Source: a bacterium
Lineage (GTDB): Bacteria > Patescibacteriota > Minisyncoccia > UBA6257 > UBA9933
Assembly (NCBI GenBank): GCA_021786355.1
Contig: JAJYNK010000009.1
Coordinates: 517 to 64,516, forward strand
Direction of reading: 5' to 3'
Length of the DNA stretch: 64,000 bases
The position numbers were made by a program, and so were the translations under genes. Positions 1 to 14,568 of the stretch are shown in pieces. Under the pieces are notes generated by a model. That model saw only the letters and a program-made list of their open reading frames with translations. It ran no database searches and was not told where the DNA came from. Every line of letters starts with the position of its first letter. Positions within the stretch are counted from its first letter, which is position 1.

Positions 1-84
1 TTCAGACATTCGGATAAACCGGGCGGGAAAAATCCGGAATCAGAGCAATACCCCGGGCTTAGCGAAAAAGGAGCTGAAAAAGCT

Positions 85-837
85 ATGGAGCAAAAATCCA
101 GGGAAATAAAAGAAAATGTTGAAAACGCCCCTGACCGGGCTCTAATTTATATTGGAGGAGCCACGGAGCTCGCAAGAACCAAATCAACAGCCGTTGCCGT
201 GGGCGAAGGATTAAAAGCGTTGTACAAAGACGATGAAAACGTGCTGGTCTTAACCAAAGAGGAAATTTTAAGCCGAGCAGGAAAAACCGAATCACTTTCG
301 TCCACGATTAAAAAAATCGTTGAAATAATCGAAAGCGACGAAAATAAAAACAAAAAAATAGTGGTTGATTTTCCTCTGTTCGTTAAAGAACTTTCATTTG
401 GCCGCCGTTGGGACGCTAAAAAAGATAATTTTGAATATTTCGATTATCTGGATAAAAAATACGGCGATGACGAGGAAGGAGCTTTTGAAGAATGGTCTCT
501 TACCAAAGGAGAAAACATTGAAGGGGTAGAGGGTCCGAATCCGGAGACGGTAGCGGAGGAATATTTATTTGGTCTGGACAGAATTCATGAATTTGCAAAA
601 AAATATTTTCCTGACAGACCGGTGGTTATCGGCGCGGTTTCGCATCGCTGGGATTTGGACGCCGCCATTTTAAAATTGATAGCAGGCGAGGTTTCTCCTA
701 AAAGTTTTAAAGAAATTTCTAACGAAAAGCTTACAGACACCACGGAGGGCACGGCCATAACAATCGGCGAAGATCAGATGAAAATCGCGTGGAGGGGAAA
801 AGAATTTGAGATAAAAATAGAAGAACAAAATGAATAA
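85..837 (+). CDS. Histidine-phosphatase (phosphoglycerate-mutase-like) fold protein with a degenerate N-terminal catalytic motif; first gene of a 4-gene operon
   Basis: C-terminal motif VIGAVSHRWDLDAAILKL resembles the second His motif (VSHGG..) of histidine phosphatases. The N-terminal position LIYIGGATELARTKS aligns to LxxVRHGETxxN but has GGA in place of RHG. AAAGGAG RBS 8 nt before ATG 85. The stop overlaps the next ORF's start by 8 nt. Confidence 0.35.
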   Translation: MEQKSREIKENVENAPDRALIYIGGATELARTKSTAVAVGEGLKALYKDDENVLVLTKEEILSRAGKTESLSSTIKKIVEIIESDENKNKKIVVDFPLFVKELSFGRRWDAKKDNFEYFDYLDKKYGDDEEGAFEEWSLTKGENIEGVEGPNPETVAEEYLFGLDRIHEFAKKYFPDRPVVIGAVSHRWDLDAAILKLIAGEVSPKSFKEISNEKLTDTTEGTAITIGEDQMKIAWRGKEFEIKIEEQNE

Positions 838-1228
838 TTTAAACCCAAATAAATGGATACGGGATTATTCTGATGCCGTAAGTGATTTTACTTTCGGCGA
901 CCACGATCCGGCATCTCATCTGCCGTTCAATGCCTTTAAATTTTATCCTTTATATTTTAATCTTTGGATGGATAAAATTTATTCCGCTATCAAAATAATT
1001 GAAAGCGAAAAAATCTCCAAAAATAAAATCTTAACAATTCTCCCCAATTATGGCTCTATAAAATATATATTTTATACGCTTGTAAATATGGGCGCTTATT
1101 TTAATTATGACAAGGAAAAAGCAAAAACTATTTTTGACTTTTTTATAAAGTATATGTCTTGGTTAAGCAAAGACAAAAATTTATTTAATGAAAAAAGCTG
1201 TGTTTTAAGAACAAAAAAAAGAAATTAG
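830..1228 (+). CDS. Hypothetical protein, probable N-terminal part of a gene interrupted by a frameshift in an A8 tract
   Basis: The start overlaps the stop of the upstream ORF. The ORF ends at TAG 1226-1228, just after an A8 run at 1212-1220. Another frame is open from 1209 into the next ORF. Confidence 0.4.
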   Translation: MNNLNPNKWIRDYSDAVSDFTFGDHDPASHLPFNAFKFYPLYFNLWMDKIYSAIKIIESEKISKNKILTILPNYGSIKYIFYTLVNMGAYFNYDKEKAKTIFDFFIKYMSWLSKDKNLFNEKSCVLRTKKRN

Positions 1229-1427
1229 CAGGATTCTTCCAAAATTAAAGGTTGCCGACGAAAAGGAAAAGGCAAATATATCCAAATTAAGCGGTATTTT
1301 AGCGCTGTATAACCACGCGCTTTACAACGATTATTCAACCGAATACGGATATTCCAACGATGGCCCTTACAAATACAAAAATTTCTCTCTACTTGTAAAG
1401 AATTATCCCGATTTATCTCCTAAAGAA

Positions 1428-1895
1428 TTGTGGCCTCAATTAAAAAATTTTAAATTCAAAAAAATAATTATTTTTGTTTTGTATAAAAACACAAGGATCA
1501 AAATGCGTTTTGTAACTACCCATATTTTAGCGGATAGAAACTATGCCAAAAAATTGTTTAAATACCTGGTTTTTTTGGACGGAAAACCAGCGACTAGCTT
1601 TAAAATTGAAAAATTAATCCGGCAAATAGCTGATAAAATCGGCGAAATTTATCTTGAGGCAAAAAGGTATAATTTTGAAAAAACAAAATTAAAATTTTTG
1701 GAGCAACAATCTTATGAATTAAAAGGGTTATTTGCCTTGGCCGGTTTAAATTGGCGGCCGGAGAAAGCAATGATTAAAAAAGTAAAAAATAAGCGGTTAA
1801 AAACAGATTTTATAAAAATGTCCTACCCGAAAAATAAAAAGGAATACGAAAAATATATAGGAGTGGCATACTTGAAAAAGATTTACAATTTATGA
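1428..1895 (+). CDS. Hypothetical protein, probable C-terminal part of the same frameshifted gene (frame open from 1209; 1428 is a TTG codon)
   Basis: Hand translation of frame 0 from 1209 runs without a stop through 1428 into this ORF. No in-frame ATG lies upstream of the TTG at 1428. Its stop overlaps the ATG of the next gene (ATGA). Confidence 0.4.
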   Translation: MWPQLKNFKFKKIIIFVLYKNTRIKMRFVTTHILADRNYAKKLFKYLVFLDGKPATSFKIEKLIRQIADKIGEIYLEAKRYNFEKTKLKFLEQQSYELKGLFALAGLNWRPEKAMIKKVKNKRLKTDFIKMSYPKNKKEYEKYIGVAYLKKIYNL

Positions 1896-2215
1896 AAGAA
1901 ATAAAAGGGATCGTGGCAAACAAAGGAAAAGCCAGGGGTAGAGTAAAAATCATTAAAAACTCCGCGGACTTTAAAAATTTTAAAGAAGGAGAAATTTTAG
2001 TTGCGGAATTAACCAATCCCTCTTTCGCGGCAATTATTATAAAAGCAGCGGCTATAATTACGGATAAAGGAGGAATAACTTCTCATCCTGCTATCATAGC
2101 CAGAGAATTCGGCATACCTTGCCTTGTCGGCGCGAAAAACGCCACTAAAATTTTAAAAGATGGCGACAGGATTGAAATGGATTTAAACAAAGGAACTGTA
2201 AAAATTTTGAAATAA
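1892..2215 (+). CDS. Stand-alone PEP-utilising enzyme mobile (phosphohistidine swivel) domain protein
   Basis: Contains GGITSHPAIIAREFGIPCLVG, the classic phospho-His motif of PEP synthase/PPDK/enzyme I. Only 107 aa long, with no ATP-grasp or TIM-barrel domain. Confidence 0.8.
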   Translation: MKEIKGIVANKGKARGRVKIIKNSADFKNFKEGEILVAELTNPSFAAIIIKAAAIITDKGGITSHPAIIAREFGIPCLVGAKNATKILKDGDRIEMDLNKGTVKILK

Positions 2216-3154
2216 ATGTACACAAAGAATTTTAAGAAATTATCTAAAGAAAACACTGGCACTGCAGGAGGCAAGGGAGCGTCACTGGGAGAAATGACTC
2301 GAGCCGGTATTCCAGTGCCGCCCGGATTCGTAGTTTTAGCGCAAGCTTTTGACAATTTTTTAGAAGAAACCGATTTGGGCGTTGAAATTGAGGCGCTGCT
2401 TCATAAAGTAAAGGTTAAGGACATAAACCCCATTGAAAAAGTTTCCGAAGAAATCAGGAATTTAATTTTAAGCGCCAAATTTCCCAAAGATATCGCCAAA
2501 GAGATTTTGATTGAATTTTCCAAGCTAAAAGCAAAATACGTAGCGGTAAGAAGTTCAGCCACTGCCGAGGATTCCTTTACCGCTTCCTGGGCCGGAGAGC
2601 TGGAAACCTATTTAAATACCTCAAAGGAAAATCTTTTGGAAAATGTTAAAAAGTGCTGGGCATCGCTTTTCACTCCCCGAGCTATTTTTTACCGCTTTGA
2701 AAAAAAATTGAACAGGCAAAAGGTTTCCGTGGCGGTTGTTGTGCAGAAAATGGTCCAGTCGGAAATTTCGGGCATTACTTTCACGGTTCATCCGGTAACA
2801 AAAGATTATAACCAAATGGTGATTGAAGCCGGATATGGCCTTGGCGAAGCGATTGTTGGGGGCAAAATCACTCCGGATACCTATATAGTGCATAAAATTA
2901 AAAATACTATTTTAGACGCGAATATCTCCGAACAAAAAATGATGGTTGTCCGCCACGGAAACGGCACAAAAGAAGACGTCGTCCCTAAAGCCAAGCAGAA
3001 AAAGCAGAAGTTGTCTGATAAGTATATTTTAGAACTGGTAAAAATATGCCAGAATATAGAAAATTATTATAAAAAACCACAGGATATTGAATGGGCTTTG
3101 GAGAAAAATAAATTTTATATTGTTCAAAGCAGGCCGATTACAACATTAAAATAA
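2216..3154 (+). CDS. Stand-alone PEP synthase / pyruvate phosphate dikinase N-terminal ATP-grasp (PPDK_N) domain protein
   Basis: GTAGGKGASLGEMTRAGIPVPPGFVV matches the N-terminus of PpsA (GGKNASLGEM). At 312 aa it ends before any His domain. Its start codon directly follows the stop of the His-domain gene. Confidence 0.8.
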   Translation: MYTKNFKKLSKENTGTAGGKGASLGEMTRAGIPVPPGFVVLAQAFDNFLEETDLGVEIEALLHKVKVKDINPIEKVSEEIRNLILSAKFPKDIAKEILIEFSKLKAKYVAVRSSATAEDSFTASWAGELETYLNTSKENLLENVKKCWASLFTPRAIFYRFEKKLNRQKVSVAVVVQKMVQSEISGITFTVHPVTKDYNQMVIEAGYGLGEAIVGGKITPDTYIVHKIKNTILDANISEQKMMVVRHGNGTKEDVVPKAKQKKQKLSDKYILELVKICQNIENYYKKPQDIEWALEKNKFYIVQSRPITTLK

Positions 3155-3192
3155 CTTTGACTATATAAAAGTTTTTGCTATATTTACCGGAT

Positions 3193-3264
3193 GCGAGTGT
3201 AGCTCAGTGGTAGAGCACCGCCCTTATAAGACGGCCGTCGCAGGTTCGATCCCTGCCACTCGCA
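3193..3264 (+). tRNA. tRNA with anticodon UAU (Ile-AUA decoder)
   Basis: Hand-folded cloverleaf: acceptor GCGAGTG/CACTCGC, D arm GCTC-AGTGGTA-GAGC, anticodon loop CTTATAA, T arm GCAGG-TTCGATC-CCTGC. There is one C-A mismatch in the anticodon stem. No encoded CCA. Confidence 0.55.
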
Positions 3265-3288
3265 CTTTTTTTGTTATAATAAATACAT

Positions 3289-3897
3289 ATGGAATCTTTG
3301 TTTTTAAACCTCTCCGAAGTTCACCGAATACTCGCGTATCTGGCTATATTTATAGGAATGTTCATAGAAGGAGAAATTATTTTGGTGCTCACCGGGGTGT
3401 TAGTAAGAAGCGGGGCTATTAGTTTTTTCCCTTCGCTGTTAACGGCTTTTGTTGGAGTTATTTTGTGTGATCTTTTTTATTGGAGCCTGGGGAAAAGATT
3501 GGTTGAAAGCGGAAGAAAAAAATTTTTATTTTTCACAACCGAGAATACCGCGCCAATTTTGCGGAAGCTGGAAAAAAGAAGCGGTTTTTGGATTTTTATT
3601 TCTAAATTCGCTTGGAATTTAAACAGAGTGGTTTTGGTCTGCGCCGGTTATTCAAAAATTTCTCTTAAAAAACTTCTAAAATACAGCGCCACCGCCGCGG
3701 CCGTCTGGACAGCCTTATTAATTTCTCTCGGATACATTTTCGCCCACCAAACCGATATTCTTAAACACGACTTAAAACGCGCTGCTCTATTTTTGACGCT
3801 TTTAATAATAGGCGTTATATTCTTTGAGTACGCTCTTAAAAAAGTTTTTAATGCGTTAAGCAACGGCGGTAACGGAAATACGACTGAAACGCATTAA
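3289..3897 (+). CDS. DedA/SNARE-associated (VTT domain) membrane protein
   Basis: About 200 aa and multi-TM. Carries an IFIGMFIEGEIILVLTGVL..FFPSLLTAFVGVILCDLFYWSLGKR pattern typical of the DedA family. Confidence 0.7.
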   Translation: MESLFLNLSEVHRILAYLAIFIGMFIEGEIILVLTGVLVRSGAISFFPSLLTAFVGVILCDLFYWSLGKRLVESGRKKFLFFTTENTAPILRKLEKRSGFWIFISKFAWNLNRVVLVCAGYSKISLKKLLKYSATAAAVWTALLISLGYIFAHQTDILKHDLKRAALFLTLLIIGVIFFEYALKKVFNALSNGGNGNTTETH

Positions 3898-3926
3898 AAG
3901 CTCGTGGAAATAAAATTATAATTATC

Positions 3927-4000
3927 GGGCGATTAGCTCAGTTGGTTAGAGCGTCTCGTTTACACCGAGAAGGCCGGGGGTTCGAATCCCTCATCGCCCA
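3927..4000 (+). tRNA. tRNA-Val (anticodon UAC)
   Basis: Acceptor GGGCGAT/ATCGCCC, D arm GCTC-AGTTGGTTA-GAGC, anticodon stem TCTCG/CGAGA with loop TTTACAC, T arm GGGGG-TTCGAAT-CCCTC, discriminator A. Confidence 0.8.
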
Positions 4001-4024
4001 CAAATATTTAAACTCCTTAATTTA

Positions 4025-4053
4025 TTGTAATAATCGAACCCGTATGCTATATT
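4025..4053 (+). promoter_or_regulatory. Putative sigma70 promoter TTGTAA-N17-TATATT upstream of the 4085 gene
   Basis: Hexamers at 4025-4030 and 4048-4053 with 17-nt spacing, about 30 nt upstream of the ATG at 4085. Confidence 0.35.
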
Positions 4054-4084
4054 CAATATAGCAATTATCTTCACCAGTTCGATT

Positions 4085-4738
4085 ATGAAGCAAGATAAAA
4101 AACAAAAAGCGCGGGAACTCCGAGCTTATGGTTACTCTCTGAACGAGATTGCGAAAAACTTAAACGTTTCAAAAAGCAGCGCGAGTATCTGGGTCCGCAA
4201 CGTCGCCCTAACCAAAGACCAGGAGAAAACGTTATCAAGGCGTACCGCGAAACTCTCTGTTGTGGAAAAAAGACGCGCAACTCGACTAGCTCGGAAAATC
4301 GCCTCACAAGAAAACCTCTTAAACCAATCGCAAAAGCAAATAAAGAAAGTGACCCAAAATGAGCTCCGGCTAATTGGCTCGGTATTGTATTGGACAGGGG
4401 GAGGAAAAACCCAAAAAGGCCTTGTCCGGTTCTCAAACAGCGATCCAGAGACGGTTAAGCTAATGATGGCTTTTTTTAGGAGCGTTTGCGAGGTTCCGGA
4501 ATACAAATTTCGGGGCCATATTTATACCCAACCCCACATAAACCCGCGAAACGCAGAAAAATACTGGTCGGAAATTTCCGGCATCCCCTTAAAGCAATTT
4601 TTCAAACCCTCGGTAAAAAAAGCTACTAAATCCAAAAAAGGGTGGCTTTCTTATGGATCTTTTGAAATCTATATCTGTAATGTTGAGCTATTCTTAAAAA
4701 TCCAGGGGTGGGTTAAGGGCATTTTTGCCTTTTTTTAG
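4085..4738 (+). CDS. HTH-domain protein. The N-terminal helix-turn-helix is LNEIAKNLNVSKSSASIW. The C-terminal half is loosely reminiscent of a degenerate LAGLIDADG-type nuclease fold.
   Basis: RAYGYSLNEIAKNLNVSKSSASIWVRN is an HTH-like segment. The C-terminal part (LIGSVLYWTGGGK..) has no confident family match. Confidence 0.35.
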   Translation: MKQDKKQKARELRAYGYSLNEIAKNLNVSKSSASIWVRNVALTKDQEKTLSRRTAKLSVVEKRRATRLARKIASQENLLNQSQKQIKKVTQNELRLIGSVLYWTGGGKTQKGLVRFSNSDPETVKLMMAFFRSVCEVPEYKFRGHIYTQPHINPRNAEKYWSEISGIPLKQFFKPSVKKATKSKKGWLSYGSFEIYICNVELFLKIQGWVKGIFAFF

Positions 4739-5030: not shown

Positions 5031-5534
5031 TTAATCCTTAAACTTGTTTAAAAACCGTTCCTCGTCATAAATTCCCCATTTATAAAGCCGGTACAACGAT
5101 TTGTGCCTATCGGAAACATCCGGATCGCTACCGATTTTTTCAAGCCAATTAACGAATTGAGTCCCTTTATATCCATGTAATTTCTTATAAAATAGAGGAA
5201 TTATTATGTCTTTTAATTGATCAAATTCTCGCACTATTAAAGTAGCCCTTCTTCCGCGTTTTACTCCATCTCCTTGCCATGATTTATGATTATAAATTTT
5301 ATTTCTCAGACCTAACTTTTCCTTAACTAATCTAATAAGTTTCTCGTCTCTTTCGTGCATTGCCAGCACAAATGCCGGTTGTTTTTGCTTTCTCCCATCA
5401 CTTTTTTTATATCCTGGAGTAAATGAGAAACATCCCTCTCCATCAATAAGCCCTCTTATATAATCAAAGGTTAATGGATTTGTTTCAAATTGTTTCGCGG
5501 CCAACATTGGCACCATATTTTTATATTGTATCAC
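5031..5534 (-). CDS. LAGLIDADG homing endonuclease (single-motif, homodimer type)
   Basis: YIRGLIDGEGCFSF is a canonical LAGLIDADG motif. At 167 aa it is free-standing. Confidence 0.8.
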   Translation of the reverse strand: MIQYKNMVPMLAAKQFETNPLTFDYIRGLIDGEGCFSFTPGYKKSDGRKQKQPAFVLAMHERDEKLIRLVKEKLGLRNKIYNHKSWQGDGVKRGRRATLIVREFDQLKDIIIPLFYKKLHGYKGTQFVNWLEKIGSDPDVSDRHKSLYRLYKWGIYDEERFLNKFKD

Positions 5535-6134: not shown

Positions 6135-6317
6135 ATGTTCAACTACACGAACCAGAAGCACAACAGCAAAAGGAAGCGGAGTGACCGCTTCACTCGCAAG
6201 TTTTTCCAGCCGATATTCAGCGGAATGCTGGCCATGACCGTGTTCGCCTTCATGATGGTGATCCTGACCTCTCGCTATCCCGCTTTCATGAAGTCGATCC
6301 TAACATTCCATTACTAG
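6135..6317 (+). CDS. Small hydrophobic protein (60 aa) in a higher-GC cassette
   Basis: G-rich RBS GAGGGGGTAAAA before the ATG. One predicted TM segment (MLAMTVFAFMMVILT). Local GC is clearly above the surroundings. Confidence 0.3.
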   Translation: MFNYTNQKHNSKRKRSDRFTRKFFQPIFSGMLAMTVFAFMMVILTSRYPAFMKSILTFHY

Positions 6318-6336
6318 GAAAGGAAGGAGGTGCGCC

Positions 6337-6621
6337 GTGCTGGATGTCTGGGTTTTTGAAACAGGTAGGAAACTCGGCAACCCGAACATGGTTCAGATAT
6401 GGACAGAAGGTGTTATTATACCCTTCCGTCACAAGAAACACTTCGGCCGTCGCATAATAACGGCCGGCGGCGTAAACGAAAGGTTCAAGCCGGGCGCACA
6501 TACCCGCGACACTCACAACTACTTTGTCGCGCCGGCTGCTTTTGCCTTGGCCTGCGACAAAGCTAAAGAGTATTTCCGAAGAAACCCCCCAGAAAAGAAA
6601 GGAGATTGGGTCCCCGCATAG
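6337..6621 (+). CDS. Hypothetical 94-aa protein in a higher-GC cassette
   Basis: AGGAGG RBS directly upstream (GTG at 6331 or ATG at 6337). Followed by a rho-independent terminator. Confidence 0.35.
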   Translation: MLDVWVFETGRKLGNPNMVQIWTEGVIIPFRHKKHFGRRIITAGGVNERFKPGAHTRDTHNYFVAPAAFALACDKAKEYFRRNPPEKKGDWVPA

Positions 6622-13223: not shown

Positions 13224-14186
13224 TTGTTCAGCAAATTAACTAATCAACTAATTAACCAGACTGCAACACGCATGGCTGATATAAATAAACTACTTAAAAA
13301 CTATCTCGACTATCTTGAGATAGAGAAAGGCAGAACCAAAGAAACGCGGGAGAATTACGAACATTACTTAAAAACGTTTTTTGAATTTGCCAGAATAAAA
13401 TCCGAAAGCGATATCAACGCTGACAACGTAAGAGATTTTAGAATCTATCTGGCGCGGCTCCATAATCTTCGAGATGGTGAAAATTTTAAGCGCACAACTC
13501 AAAGCTATTATATAATAGCGCTTAGAAACTTTTTGAAATTTTTGGCGAAAAACGACTATAAAGTTTTGGCTTCGGAAAAAATCGAGCTTCCCAGGATCCC
13601 AAAACAACAAATAGACATAATGGAATACTCGGATTTGGAGCGGCTTATGGCGGCGCCCAAAACAACCGATTTAAAAGGGCTGCGCGACAAGGCGATTTTG
13701 GAAGTTTTGTTTTCAACCGGACTTCGAGTGTCGGAATTGTGCGCTTTAAACCGATATTTTGACTTGAATAGGGGAGAAATTTCCGTACGCGGTAAAGGCG
13801 GGAAAATACGAGTGGTATTTTTAGCCGACTCCGCTAAAAAAGCCATTAAAAATTATCTGGATAAACGAACCGACGCCGAAGAAGCTTTATTTGTGAGCTT
13901 AACCAAAGCAAAAAATCCAAAAGTGCTTGGAAGAATTATTCCTCGCACAGTCCAACGCTTGATAGATTTTTATGGAAGAAAGGCAGGCATCTCACAAAAA
14001 ATCCATCCGCATTTAATCCGACACAGCTTTGCCACTGATTTATTAATAGGCGGAGCGGATTTAAGGTCAGTACAGGAACTTTTAGGCCACAGCAATATCT
14101 CCACAACCCAGATTTATACGCACTTGACCAATAAAGAGCTTAAAGAAATACATAAAACTTTTCACGGGAGACGCAGGAGCGAGTAG
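13224..14186 (+). CDS. Tyrosine site-specific recombinase, XerC/XerD-like (true start possibly MADINK at 13272)
   Basis: Catalytic signatures LIRHSFATDLL (HxxR) and LGHSNISTTQIYTHL (Tyr) plus an N-terminal SAM-like core-binding domain. Confidence 0.85.
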   Translation: MFSKLTNQLINQTATRMADINKLLKNYLDYLEIEKGRTKETRENYEHYLKTFFEFARIKSESDINADNVRDFRIYLARLHNLRDGENFKRTTQSYYIIALRNFLKFLAKNDYKVLASEKIELPRIPKQQIDIMEYSDLERLMAAPKTTDLKGLRDKAILEVLFSTGLRVSELCALNRYFDLNRGEISVRGKGGKIRVVFLADSAKKAIKNYLDKRTDAEEALFVSLTKAKNPKVLGRIIPRTVQRLIDFYGRKAGISQKIHPHLIRHSFATDLLIGGADLRSVQELLGHSNISTTQIYTHLTNKELKEIHKTFHGRRRSE

Positions 14187-14324: not shown

Positions 14325-14486
14325 CTCTTCCCCCGTAATTTTTCGTTCATAAATAAACATGAAAAATTACTCCTCCAGAGCCGGGGTTTTAAAAAAGCAA
14401 AGCAGTTTGCTTTTTTAAATACCCTTCTCCTCCCTTGTGATGTAAAAACTATAAATCCCTTTGAAATCAAAGGGATTTATAGTTTG

Positions 14487-14568
14487 TGTCCTCGGTGGGA
14501 GTCGAACCCACAACCCTTACGGGATAGCGTCCTAAGCGCTACGCGTATTCCATTTCCGCCACGAGGAC
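14487..14568 (-). tRNA. tRNA-Leu (anticodon UAG), long variable arm
   Basis: Reverse complement folds as acceptor GTCCTCG/CGAGGAC, anticodon stem TAGCG/CGCTA with loop CTTAGGA, variable arm TCCCGTAAGGGTT, T arm GTGGG-TTCGACT-CCCAC. Confidence 0.8.

What the first reader, a model, noticed from the sequence alone, without database searches (positions are those of the whole stretch)
85..3154. Operon of split PEP-synthase-like parts (phospho-His swivel domain, then ATP-grasp) with a degenerate histidine-phosphatase-fold protein and a frameshifted unknown
Four overlapping or abutting plus-strand genes make up this operon.
- A histidine-phosphatase-fold protein keeps the second His motif (AVSHRWD) but has GGA at the catalytic RHG position.
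- An unknown protein of about 355 aa is broken by an A8 tract.
- A 107-aa stand-alone phosphohistidine swivel domain carries GGITSHPAIIAREFGIPCLVG.
- A 312-aa stand-alone PPDK_N ATP-grasp domain follows.

The parts are in permuted order relative to PpsA/PPDK (His domain before ATP-grasp), and no PEP-binding TIM barrel is present. A rifampin-phosphotransferase-like chemistry, split into separate polypeptides and coupled to a phosphatase-fold partner, is not a named system I recognise. It could be a small-molecule or protein phosphorylation/inactivation module, or a regulatory phosphorelay.
Basis: partly seen in the sequence, partly recalled or inferred. Interest (0 to 1): 0.7.

Follow-up and report, generated by a model that had tools for sequence, protein, structure and literature searches.

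The report
Split four-gene dikinase module with phosphatase
A candidate-phyla-radiation bacterium carries a conserved four-gene module that looks like an ATP-driven phosphate-transfer enzyme split into separate proteins, with a previously undescribed substrate-binding part and an intact partner phosphatase. In this genome the substrate-binding gene is broken by one extra A.

Summary
The four abutting plus-strand genes are real. The 107-aa protein is a PEP-utilizers swivel domain (7e-27) with the TxxGGxxxH motif. The 312-aa protein is a full PPDK_N ATP-grasp (7e-106).

The "unknown" gene, here called X, is split by an A8 tract at 1213-1220. An 86%-identical relative has A7 there and an intact 354-aa protein.

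The first gene is cut by the window edge: its frame is open from base 1 and reads FRHSDKP, so the catalytic Arg-His is present. "GGA" belongs to the second motif (GGATELARTKSTA). The phosphatase looks catalytically complete, not degenerate.

X has no Pfam, NCBIfam or PDB match despite a confident model. In other organisms it is fused to the swivel domain at either end, or to PPDK_N. A histidine-phosphatase gene sits next to X in 10 of the 12 informative lineages.

Best reading: a multi-component substrate,water-dikinase, related to the two-component HpeHI/PpsAB enzymes and to RPH. It has a free-standing phospho-His carrier, a new acceptor-binding subunit and a dedicated phosphatase. The substrate is unknown.

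It is a new variant of a known kind. X may be inactive in this strain.

The parts
1..837 (+). HP: a histidine-phosphatase-superfamily protein. Its 5' end is cut by the window edge (about 7 codons missing). Catalytic Arg-His is at nt 4-9 and the second catalytic His (AVSHRWD) at nt 643-645.
830..1228 (+). X, N-terminal fragment (132 aa). It overlaps HP by 8 nt and ends at a premature TAG caused by the frameshift.
   Evidence: It matches the X profile at 1e-67.
1213..1220 (+). A8 tract: a +1 A insertion relative to the A7 tract of the intact relative. It shifts X into the +1 frame.
1209..1895 (+). X, C-terminal part in the +1 frame, stop-free from 1209. Deleting one A restores a 354-aa protein that aligns over its full length with intact homologues.
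   Evidence: It matches the X profile at 4e-64.
1892..2215 (+). SW: a free-standing 107-aa phosphohistidine swivel (PEP-utilizers) domain. The predicted phospho-acceptor His65 is at nt 2084-2086, within T57-D-K-G-G-I-T-S-H65. The ATGA start overlaps the X stop codon.
   Evidence: PF00391 at 93 bits. Best NCBIfam matches are PEP synthase and the C-terminus of PRK08296. The motif is compared with T/SxxGGxxxH in PMC12167813.
2216..3154 (+). AG: a free-standing 312-aa PPDK_N ATP-grasp nucleotide-binding domain. It starts immediately after the SW stop codon.
   Evidence: PF01326 at 355 bits. It covers the N-terminal 310-340 residues of the PEP synthase and RPH models.

Best explanation
The locus encodes a multi-component ATP-dependent 'substrate, water dikinase' of the PEP-synthase / RPH / HpeHI mechanistic class, split into three polypeptides, plus a dedicated histidine-phosphatase partner.

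Proposed mechanism (inferred, except where noted):
1. AG (PPDK_N) binds ATP and pyrophosphorylates or phosphorylates His65 of the free-standing swivel protein SW, releasing AMP and Pi.
2. SW~P acts as a diffusible or loosely bound phosphocarrier. It docks on X.
3. X is a previously undescribed alpha+beta protein that takes the place of the acceptor-binding domain (the TIM barrel in PpsA, the RIF-binding domain in RPH and HpeH, the central domain in GWD). SW~P phosphorylates the acceptor bound there.
4. HP is a catalytically complete histidine phosphatase, translationally coupled to X. It hydrolyses a phosphate on the same molecule, either the product or a second phosphate. This makes a kinase/phosphatase pair, as in PFK-2/FBPase-2 or PPIP5K.

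The acceptor is unknown. Weak contextual hints point to a sugar, nucleotide-sugar or envelope precursor.

In this particular genome X carries a recent +1 A insertion. The module is therefore either newly inactivated or depends on low-level slippage at the A8 tract.

Shown: domain identities, intact catalytic motifs, gene fusions, conserved gene neighbourhood, the frameshift. Inferred: the direction of phosphate flow, the role of X as acceptor site, the role of HP.
For: -
- X is fused to the swivel domain at its C-terminus (P0010, P0011).
- X is fused to the swivel domain at its N-terminus in 13 representatives.
- X is fused to PPDK_N in P0063.
- The order HP-X-SW, with overlapping start and stop codons, is conserved in Wolfebacteria, Saccharibacteria and other Parcubacteria at 43-90% X identity. 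AG lies downstream, upstream or nearby.
- More distant loci keep the association in rearranged form: HP-SW-X::AG (L017) and SW::X-HP (L018).
- An archaeal locus keeps SW-X.
- The HP positional orthologues pass the Pfam His_Phos_1 gathering score: L009 36.2, L015 31.3, L016 31.3 and L017 24.0 bits against a cut-off of 21.7.
- The HP fold and motifs are supported.
- All four genes are under purifying selection, with dN/dS 0.06-0.14.
- Split dikinases with this mechanism have been characterised experimentally (PMC12167813).
Against: - There is no biochemical evidence and no identified acceptor.
- Across the wide X family only structural residues (Pro, Gly, Tyr, Trp and one Asp) are conserved. No obvious catalytic or binding constellation appears.
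- AG is not within 6-8 kb in L010 or in the archaeal L022.
- Of the 12 informative X lineages, the two without an adjacent HP are the archaeal locus L022, which has a swivel gene but no HP, and L020, which has neither within the 6 kb covered downstream.
- A kinase plus a phosphatase acting on the same phosphate would be a futile cycle unless it is regulated.
- X is frameshifted in this genome.
Confidence: 0.6

Rival explanations
1. HP is a SixA-like phosphohistidine phosphatase. It acts on the free-standing carrier SW~P rather than on a small molecule, and so resets or throttles the relay. X remains the acceptor site.
For: - SW is a small, free-standing phospho-His protein, analogous to HPr and NPr, which SixA dephosphorylates (established knowledge).
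- The HP partners in L009 and L016 are small, at 191-200 aa.
- This reading avoids a futile cycle at the level of the product.
Against: - The window-type HP is 285 aa with a large insertion of about 100 residues where small-molecule histidine phosphatases carry their cap.
Confidence: 0.2
2. A His-to-His phosphorelay. SW~P, docked by the scaffold X, phosphorylates the catalytic His10 of HP. HP then acts as an ATP-primed phosphotransferase or mutase, in dPGM style, rather than as a hydrolase.
For: - Histidine-phosphatase-fold enzymes work through a phospho-His intermediate and some are mutases (established knowledge).
- HP-X adjacency is tighter and more conserved than AG adjacency.
- X lacks conserved catalytic residues across the family, which fits a scaffold role.
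Against: - There is no precedent for this relay.
- The archaeal SW-X locus lacks HP.
- X being fused to SW or AG but never to HP among the 150 listed representatives fits X being part of the dikinase better than an HP adaptor.
Confidence: 0.1
3. The module is a dead or decaying remnant in this strain. The A8 insertion inactivates X, so the operon has no function here.
For: - The frameshift is real and fixed in all five contigs.
- No recoding signal was identified.
- A -1 ribosomal slip on the A-run would enter the wrong frame (reading of the sequence).
Against: - X dN/dS is 0.12-0.14, the same as HP and as the comparison between intact relatives (0.11).
- There are no further stops or indels in either half.
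- The share of lineage-specific amino-acid changes in X (29 of 354) is no higher than in HP (24 of 278) or AG (30 of 320).
- The lesion is therefore very recent, or it is partly rescued by transcriptional slippage at A8. Either way this does not affect what the module is in relatives.
Confidence: 0.4
4. A split PEP synthase (pyruvate, water dikinase), or a frameshift or assembly artefact of a fused ppsA gene.
For: AG and SW score best against the PEP synthase models PRK06464 and TIGR01418.
Against: - No TIM-barrel PEP-utilizers_C is present in the operon or the next genes downstream.
- X is predicted as a helical bundle plus beta-sheet, not a barrel.
- The parts are separate genes in every relative examined, and no fused ppsA occupies this locus.
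- SW is fused to X, not to a barrel, in other lineages.
Confidence: 0.03

Closest known systems
Two-component small-molecule dikinases HpeHI, CreHI and PpsAB (phenylphosphate synthase)
   Same: The ATP-grasp (PPDK_N) is a separate polypeptide from the His-bearing component. The mechanism is presumed to be the same: ATP to swivel His to acceptor. The swivel carries the same T/SxxGGxxxH motif (PMC12167813).
   Different: - Here the swivel is also a separate 107-aa protein, so the enzyme has three components rather than two.
- The acceptor component X shows no sequence or fold similarity to the RIF-binding-like domain of HpeH or RPH.
- A histidine phosphatase is a conserved operon partner.
- The hosts are CPR bacteria, not degraders of aromatic compounds.
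Rifampin phosphotransferase (RPH) and the PRK06241 family
   Same: The ATP-grasp and swivel domains are homologous, at 299 and 82 bits to NF041857. Both lack the PEP/pyruvate TIM barrel.
Glucan, water dikinase (GWD1)
   Same: The domain order acceptor (central) domain, then His domain, then ATP-binding domain is collinear with the gene order X-SW-AG (PMC13553574). In plants the system is paired with dedicated phosphatases that remove the added phosphate (established knowledge).
   Different: GWD is one chain of about 1400 aa with CBM45 modules. Its partner phosphatases (SEX4, LSF2) have the dual-specificity fold, not the histidine-phosphatase fold. Similarity of X to the GWD central domain could not be tested.
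Bifunctional kinase / histidine-phosphatase enzymes (PFK-2/FBPase-2; PPIP5K with an ATP-grasp kinase and a histidine-phosphatase domain)
   Different: Those are fused, direct ATP gamma-phosphate kinases with no phospho-His swivel. The resemblance is an analogy of logic, not homology of the kinase part.

Membership tests
PEP-utilising dikinase superfamily (PpsA/PPDK/RPH/GWD) | PPDK_N ATP-grasp nucleotide-binding domain | tested here: met
   PF01326 at 354.6 bits against a cut-off of 27, covering profile positions 3-312 of 328.
PEP-utilising dikinase superfamily (PpsA/PPDK/RPH/GWD) | Swivel (PEP-utilizers) domain with the catalytic His in T/SxxGGxxxH | tested here: met
   PF00391 at 93.2 bits. 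T57-DK-GG-ITS-H65 can be read in the translation. The motif is as given in PMC12167813.
PEP-utilising dikinase superfamily (PpsA/PPDK/RPH/GWD) | ATP-dependent autophosphorylation of the His, with release of AMP and Pi (or PPi) | not testable with these tools
   This needs a biochemical assay.
PEP synthase / PPDK proper | C-terminal PEP/pyruvate-binding TIM barrel (PEP-utilizers_C) | tested here: not met
   No such domain is present in any operon ORF or the two downstream genes scanned. All equivalog scores are far below their cut-offs, for example 351 against 598 bits for PRK06464.
RPH / HpeH-type small-molecule dikinases | Acceptor domain homologous to the rifampin-binding domain | tested here: not met
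   - X (intact homologue P0001) has no NCBIfam hit to the RPH, PRK06241 or PRK08296 models.
- Foldseek finds nothing at E <= 0.001.
- hhalign against the HpeH-like middle domains of the same genomes gives probability below 1%.
Histidine phosphatase superfamily, branch 1 (His_Phos_1) | N-terminal RHG-type motif with the nucleophilic His | tested here: met
   F-R-H-S is encoded at window nt 1-12. R9 and H10 are invariant in 10 sequences.
Histidine phosphatase superfamily, branch 1 (His_Phos_1) | Second Arg, the acidic proton donor and the second His of the catalytic core | tested here: met
   R66 (ATELxRTKSTA), E137 (FVKELSFGRRW) and H222 (AVSHRWD) are invariant. Assigning them to the canonical roles is by motif position, which is inference.
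Histidine phosphatase superfamily, branch 1 (His_Phos_1) | Pfam PF00300 match above the gathering score | tested here: inconclusive
   - The window protein and its 285-aa relatives give no Pfam hit.
- Positional orthologues in L009, L015, L016 and L017 pass at 24-36 bits against a cut-off of 21.7.
- A profile of the window-type family aligns to them at 87% probability and E 4e-6.
Histidine phosphatase superfamily, branch 1 (His_Phos_1) | Alpha/beta fold of the superfamily | tested here: met
SixA phosphohistidine phosphatases | Minimal core of about 160 aa without a cap insertion; acts on protein His~P | tested here: not met
Glucan, water dikinase | CBM45 modules and a central glucan-binding domain | not tested

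The most novel reading that the evidence does not exclude
CPR bacteria and some DPANN-like archaea may use the swivel domain as a free, HPr-like phosphocarrier. One ATP-grasp 'charging' enzyme would serve several interchangeable carrier and acceptor modules. These include X, HpeH-like proteins and the 320-340-aa swivel proteins seen beside it in L007 and L014. The phosphate would be passed on, His to His, to a histidine-phosphatase-fold enzyme that then works as an ATP-primed phosphotransferase or mutase. This would be a new kind of ATP-driven phosphorelay built from dikinase parts.
Probability: 0.12. Interest if true: 0.85.

Novelty: new variant of a known kind. Interest (0 to 1): 0.58.

Why it matters
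- Dikinases of the PEP-synthase/RPH class are thought to need a tethered swivelling His domain. A conserved system in which that domain is a free 107-aa protein would show that the mechanism also works with an untethered carrier.
- In neighbouring loci several swivel-bearing modules sit beside a single ATP-grasp gene. This hints at a modular charging system.
- The work defines an unannotated protein family, X. It has 409 clusters at 50% identity, a confident predicted fold and no PDB counterpart. It is the acceptor module of such enzymes.
- It links X to an intact histidine phosphatase in organisms (Wolfebacteria, Saccharibacteria, other Parcubacteria) whose metabolism is poorly understood.
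- Identifying the acceptor could reveal a phosphorylated metabolite or envelope component specific to these episymbionts.
- It also corrects an edge artefact that made the phosphatase look like a pseudoenzyme.

Tried and rejected
- **Sequence searches against PDB.** Single-sequence and profile searches for HP and X gave only chance hits.
- **Defence systems.** PADLOC models gave no hits for any of the four proteins.
- **N-terminal extensions of long X homologues.** I tested whether the extensions in P0021, P0073 and P0112 are HP fusions. They are not. P0021 and P0022 are X-X tandems. P0073 and P0112 share a different N-terminal domain of about 330 aa.
- **Riboswitch or other RNA leader.** I looked upstream of the operon in eight related loci and in the window for a hint to the ligand. 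Only tRNAs were found.
- **Promoter and terminator scan of 1-4100.** Nothing informative turned up inside the operon.
- **Single-sequence hhalign of the HP profile to L015 and L017.** This was too weak. It became significant only profile against profile.
- **Collection scans for more X loci.** The genome and metagenome scans returned few new loci, because the pattern search requires the conserved YNDYSTEYG / FLxQQGYE peptides. The third homology search added only an archaeal member.
- **Ribosomal frameshifting at the A-run.** I considered and rejected -1 frameshifting as a rescue, because it would enter the wrong frame.
- **Literature.** Searches for this gene combination in Patescibacteria found nothing.
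Full report
**1. What is in the sequence**

The + strand of window 1-3154 carries a tight gene string.
- A first ORF, listed as 85-837.
- ORF 830-1228, which overlaps the first by 8 nt.
- An ORF ending at 1895 in the +1 frame.
- ORF 1892-2215, whose ATGA start overlaps the preceding stop.
- ORF 2216-3154, which begins directly after that stop.
- tRNA-Ile(UAU) follows at 3193-3265.

- 1892-2215 is a PEP-utilizers swivel domain (PF00391, 93 bits, E 7e-27).
- 2216-3154 is a complete PPDK_N ATP-grasp (PF01326, 355 bits, E 7e-106).
- Both score best against PEP synthase models and nearly as well against RPH-type models. They cover only the corresponding domains and fall far below every whole-protein cut-off.
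- The swivel carries T57-D-K-G-G-I-T-S-H65. This matches the T/SxxGGxxxH signature described for HpeH, RPH, PpsA and PPDK (PMC12167813).
- No PEP/pyruvate TIM barrel is encoded in the operon or among the next downstream genes scanned.

**2. The phosphatase is not degenerate: an edge artefact**

- The frame of the first gene is open from base 1 and reads F-R-H-S-D-K-P-G-G-K-N-P-E-S....
- The orthologue in an 86%-identical relative (L005) is 285 aa and starts MEKKFFIFRHSDKP.
- All nine homologues retrieved are 283-291 aa.
- The window therefore cuts off about 7 codons, and the ATG at 85 is an internal Met.
- In the family alignment R9, H10, S11, R66 (in GGATELxRTKSTA), E137 (FVKELSFGRRW) and H222 (AVSHRWD) are invariant.
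- These positions correspond to the Arg-His nucleophile motif, the second Arg, the acid and the second His of histidine phosphatases. The assignment is by motif position and is inference.

Pfam does not hit this divergent protein directly. Three lines of evidence support the fold.
- Genes in the same operon position in more distant relatives pass the His_Phos_1 gathering score: L009 36.2, L015 31.3, L016 31.3 and L017 24.0 bits against a cut-off of 21.7.
- A profile of the window-type family aligns to those proteins from the RH motif to the C-terminal His motif. Probability is 87% and E 4e-6 over 231 columns.

**3. The frameshifted 'unknown' (X)**

- Frame A ends ...KSCVLRTKKRN*. The +1 frame is stop-free from 1209 to 1892 and continues EISRILPKLKVADE....
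- The break is an A8 tract at 1213-1220.
- The L005 relative has A7 there, and L014 reads RTKEE. Both encode intact 354-aa proteins.
- Deleting one A restores a 354-aa protein aligned end to end with nine intact homologues of 354-365 aa.
- The same A8 occurs in four other public contigs with two different contig-break patterns.
- About 18 other homopolymers of 8 or more bases lie in frame inside coding regions of the window.
- It is therefore a genuine, fixed +1 insertion, not a systematic sequencing error.
- Selection has not visibly relaxed. X dN/dS against L014 and L005 is 0.12-0.14. HP gives 0.12-0.14, and the two intact relatives compared with each other give 0.11 for X.
- Lineage-specific amino-acid changes are no more frequent in X than in HP or AG.
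- The lesion is very recent, or it is partly bypassed. Transcriptional slippage to A7 or A10 would restore the frame. A -1 ribosomal slip would not.

**4. What X is**

- X has no Pfam, NCBIfam or PADLOC match.
- It has no PDB match by sequence.
- A confident AF2 model (pLDDT 87.6, pTM 0.89) shows an N-terminal helical bundle, a central beta-sheet and C-terminal helices.
- RPH does not appear among the hits listed.
- hhalign of the X family against the RIF-binding-like middle domains of conventional HpeH/RPH-like proteins from the same genomes gives probability below 1%.
- An exhaustive profile search finds 409 representative clusters at 50% identity among 1.84 billion proteins.

Domain fusions tie X to the dikinase parts.
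- X::swivel in P0010 and P0011.
- swivel::X in 13 representatives.
- X::PPDK_N in P0063.
- N-domain::swivel::X in P0106 and P0112.
- X-X tandems in P0021 and P0022.

Across 116 diverse members only P32, Y165, D167, G178-P179-Y180, P197, W201, Y218, W308 and P310 stay at 80% or more. This points to a conserved scaffold with variable ligand-contact residues. That is what one expects of an acceptor-binding module with diverse specificities.

**5. Conserved neighbourhood**

| Loci | Arrangement |
|---|---|
| Window, L005, L006 | HP-X-SW-AG |
| L014 (Candidatus Wolfebacteria, 90% X identity) | HP-X-SW-[532-aa HpeH-like protein with swivel]-AG |
| L012, L013, L026 | AG-HP-X-SW |
| L007, L029 | two extra swivel proteins of 322 and 342 aa, then AG-HP-X-SW |
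| L010, L011 | HP-X-SW, then an ABC exporter; no AG within 6 kb |
| L015, L030 (Saccharibacteria) | HP-X-SW-AG |
| L009, L016 (Parcubacteria) | HP, then X::SW |
| L017 | HP-SW-X::AG |
| L018 | SW::X-HP |
| L022, L023 (archaeon) | DegT aminotransferase-SW-X; no HP |
| L020 | X alone |

- A histidine-phosphatase gene is adjacent to X in 10 of the 12 informative lineages. In the closer relatives the start and stop codons overlap.
- A swivel domain is adjacent to or fused with X in all but L020. L019 and L021 are too short to judge.
- No relative has a fused ppsA at this locus. This removes the artefact explanation.

**6. Mechanism proposed**

The model follows the experimentally characterised dikinases (PpsA, PPDK, RPH, GWD, HpeHI; PMC12167813; PMC13553574).
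- AG uses ATP to phosphorylate SW His65.
- SW~P delivers the phosphate to an acceptor held by X.
- HP, which looks catalytically competent, removes a phosphate from the same molecule. It is coupled to X more tightly than AG is.

Two alternatives for HP cannot be excluded.
- It dephosphorylates SW~P, in the manner of SixA.
- It is itself phosphorylated on His10 by SW~P and acts as a transferase or mutase.

HP's size, its cap-like insertion and its best structural matches favour a small-molecule substrate.

Hints to the acceptor are weak.
- ABC exporters are adjacent in three lineages.
- MurB and Mur ligase genes are adjacent in two lineages.
- Glycosyltransferases lie upstream in L010.
- A DegT aminotransferase and an epimerase sit next to SW-X in the archaeon.

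Together these suggest a sugar, nucleotide-sugar or envelope precursor, but no more than that.

**7. Comparison with what is known, and novelty**

- Split dikinases are known in two-component form (HpeHI, CreHI, PpsAB). There the swivel stays fused to a RIF-binding-like domain.
- This system differs in four ways:
  - a third split, giving a free-standing swivel;
  - an acceptor subunit of a different, unannotated fold;
  - a conserved histidine-phosphatase partner;
  - a distribution in CPR bacteria and at least one archaeon.
- The gene order X-SW-AG is collinear with the domain order of GWD, so the 'permuted order' is not itself unusual.
- I found no paper describing this combination.
- I rate it a new variant of a known kind. 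It is of moderate to good interest, mainly for the untethered carrier, the new acceptor family and the phosphatase coupling.
- The rating is tempered by the unknown substrate and by the broken X gene in this strain.

Noticed in passing
L009:3047-4315 (-) and L016:11310-12590 (-): A 422-426-aa protein joins a GHKL ATPase (HATPase_c_3 plus the Morc6 S5 domain) to a C-terminal PEP-utilizers swivel domain. It lies close to the HP-X::SW genes. An ATPase of a different fold fused to a phospho-His swivel is unusual.
   Followed up: partly
L016:12880-16324 (-): An RPH-like dikinase gene appears split. The N-part of PPDK_N (231 aa) and the remainder (PPDK_N C-part, middle domain and swivel; 573 aa) are separated by an inserted RhuM/Fic gene of 329 aa.
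   Followed up: no
L014:9358-10956; L007:2164-4157: Relatives carry extra swivel-bearing genes beside the single ATP-grasp gene. L014 has a 532-aa HpeH-like protein between SW and AG, which is absent from the window. L007 and L029 have two paralogous proteins of 322 and 342 aa, 38% identical to each other. One ATP-grasp may serve several acceptor modules.
   Followed up: partly
window 3193-3265: tRNA-Ile with a UAU anticodon lies directly downstream of the operon. It is 98.9% identical in L014. This anticodon is uncommon for bacterial tRNA-Ile.
   Followed up: no
window 5031-5534 (-) and 4085-4738 (+): A free-standing LAGLIDADG_1 homing-endonuclease ORF (161-167 aa) sits next to an HTH protein, between tRNA-Val and a UPF0102/NERD gene. 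It is not obviously inside an intron or intein.
   Followed up: no
window 6301-6600: This stretch has about 51% GC against a background of about 38%. ORFs overlap on both strands, and the called 94-aa gene has no Pfam hit. It could be a non-coding RNA, but there is no credible Rfam match even at E <= 1.
   Followed up: partly
window 901-1800: The X gene is markedly more AT-rich (27-32% GC) than the flanking HP and AG genes (37-46% GC).
   Followed up: no
window 13224-14186 (+) and 14486-14568 (-): A phage-integrase-family tyrosine recombinase lies next to tRNA-Leu. It could be XerC/D or the edge of an integrated element.
   Followed up: no
L022:4671-8095: In an archaeal MAG the swivel-X pair directly follows a DegT/DnrJ/EryC1 aminotransferase and sits beside an NAD-dependent sugar epimerase/dehydratase. 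A radical-SAM/SPASM gene and a nucleoside deoxyribosyltransferase gene lie downstream. This may be a hint that some X proteins act on modified sugars.
   Followed up: no
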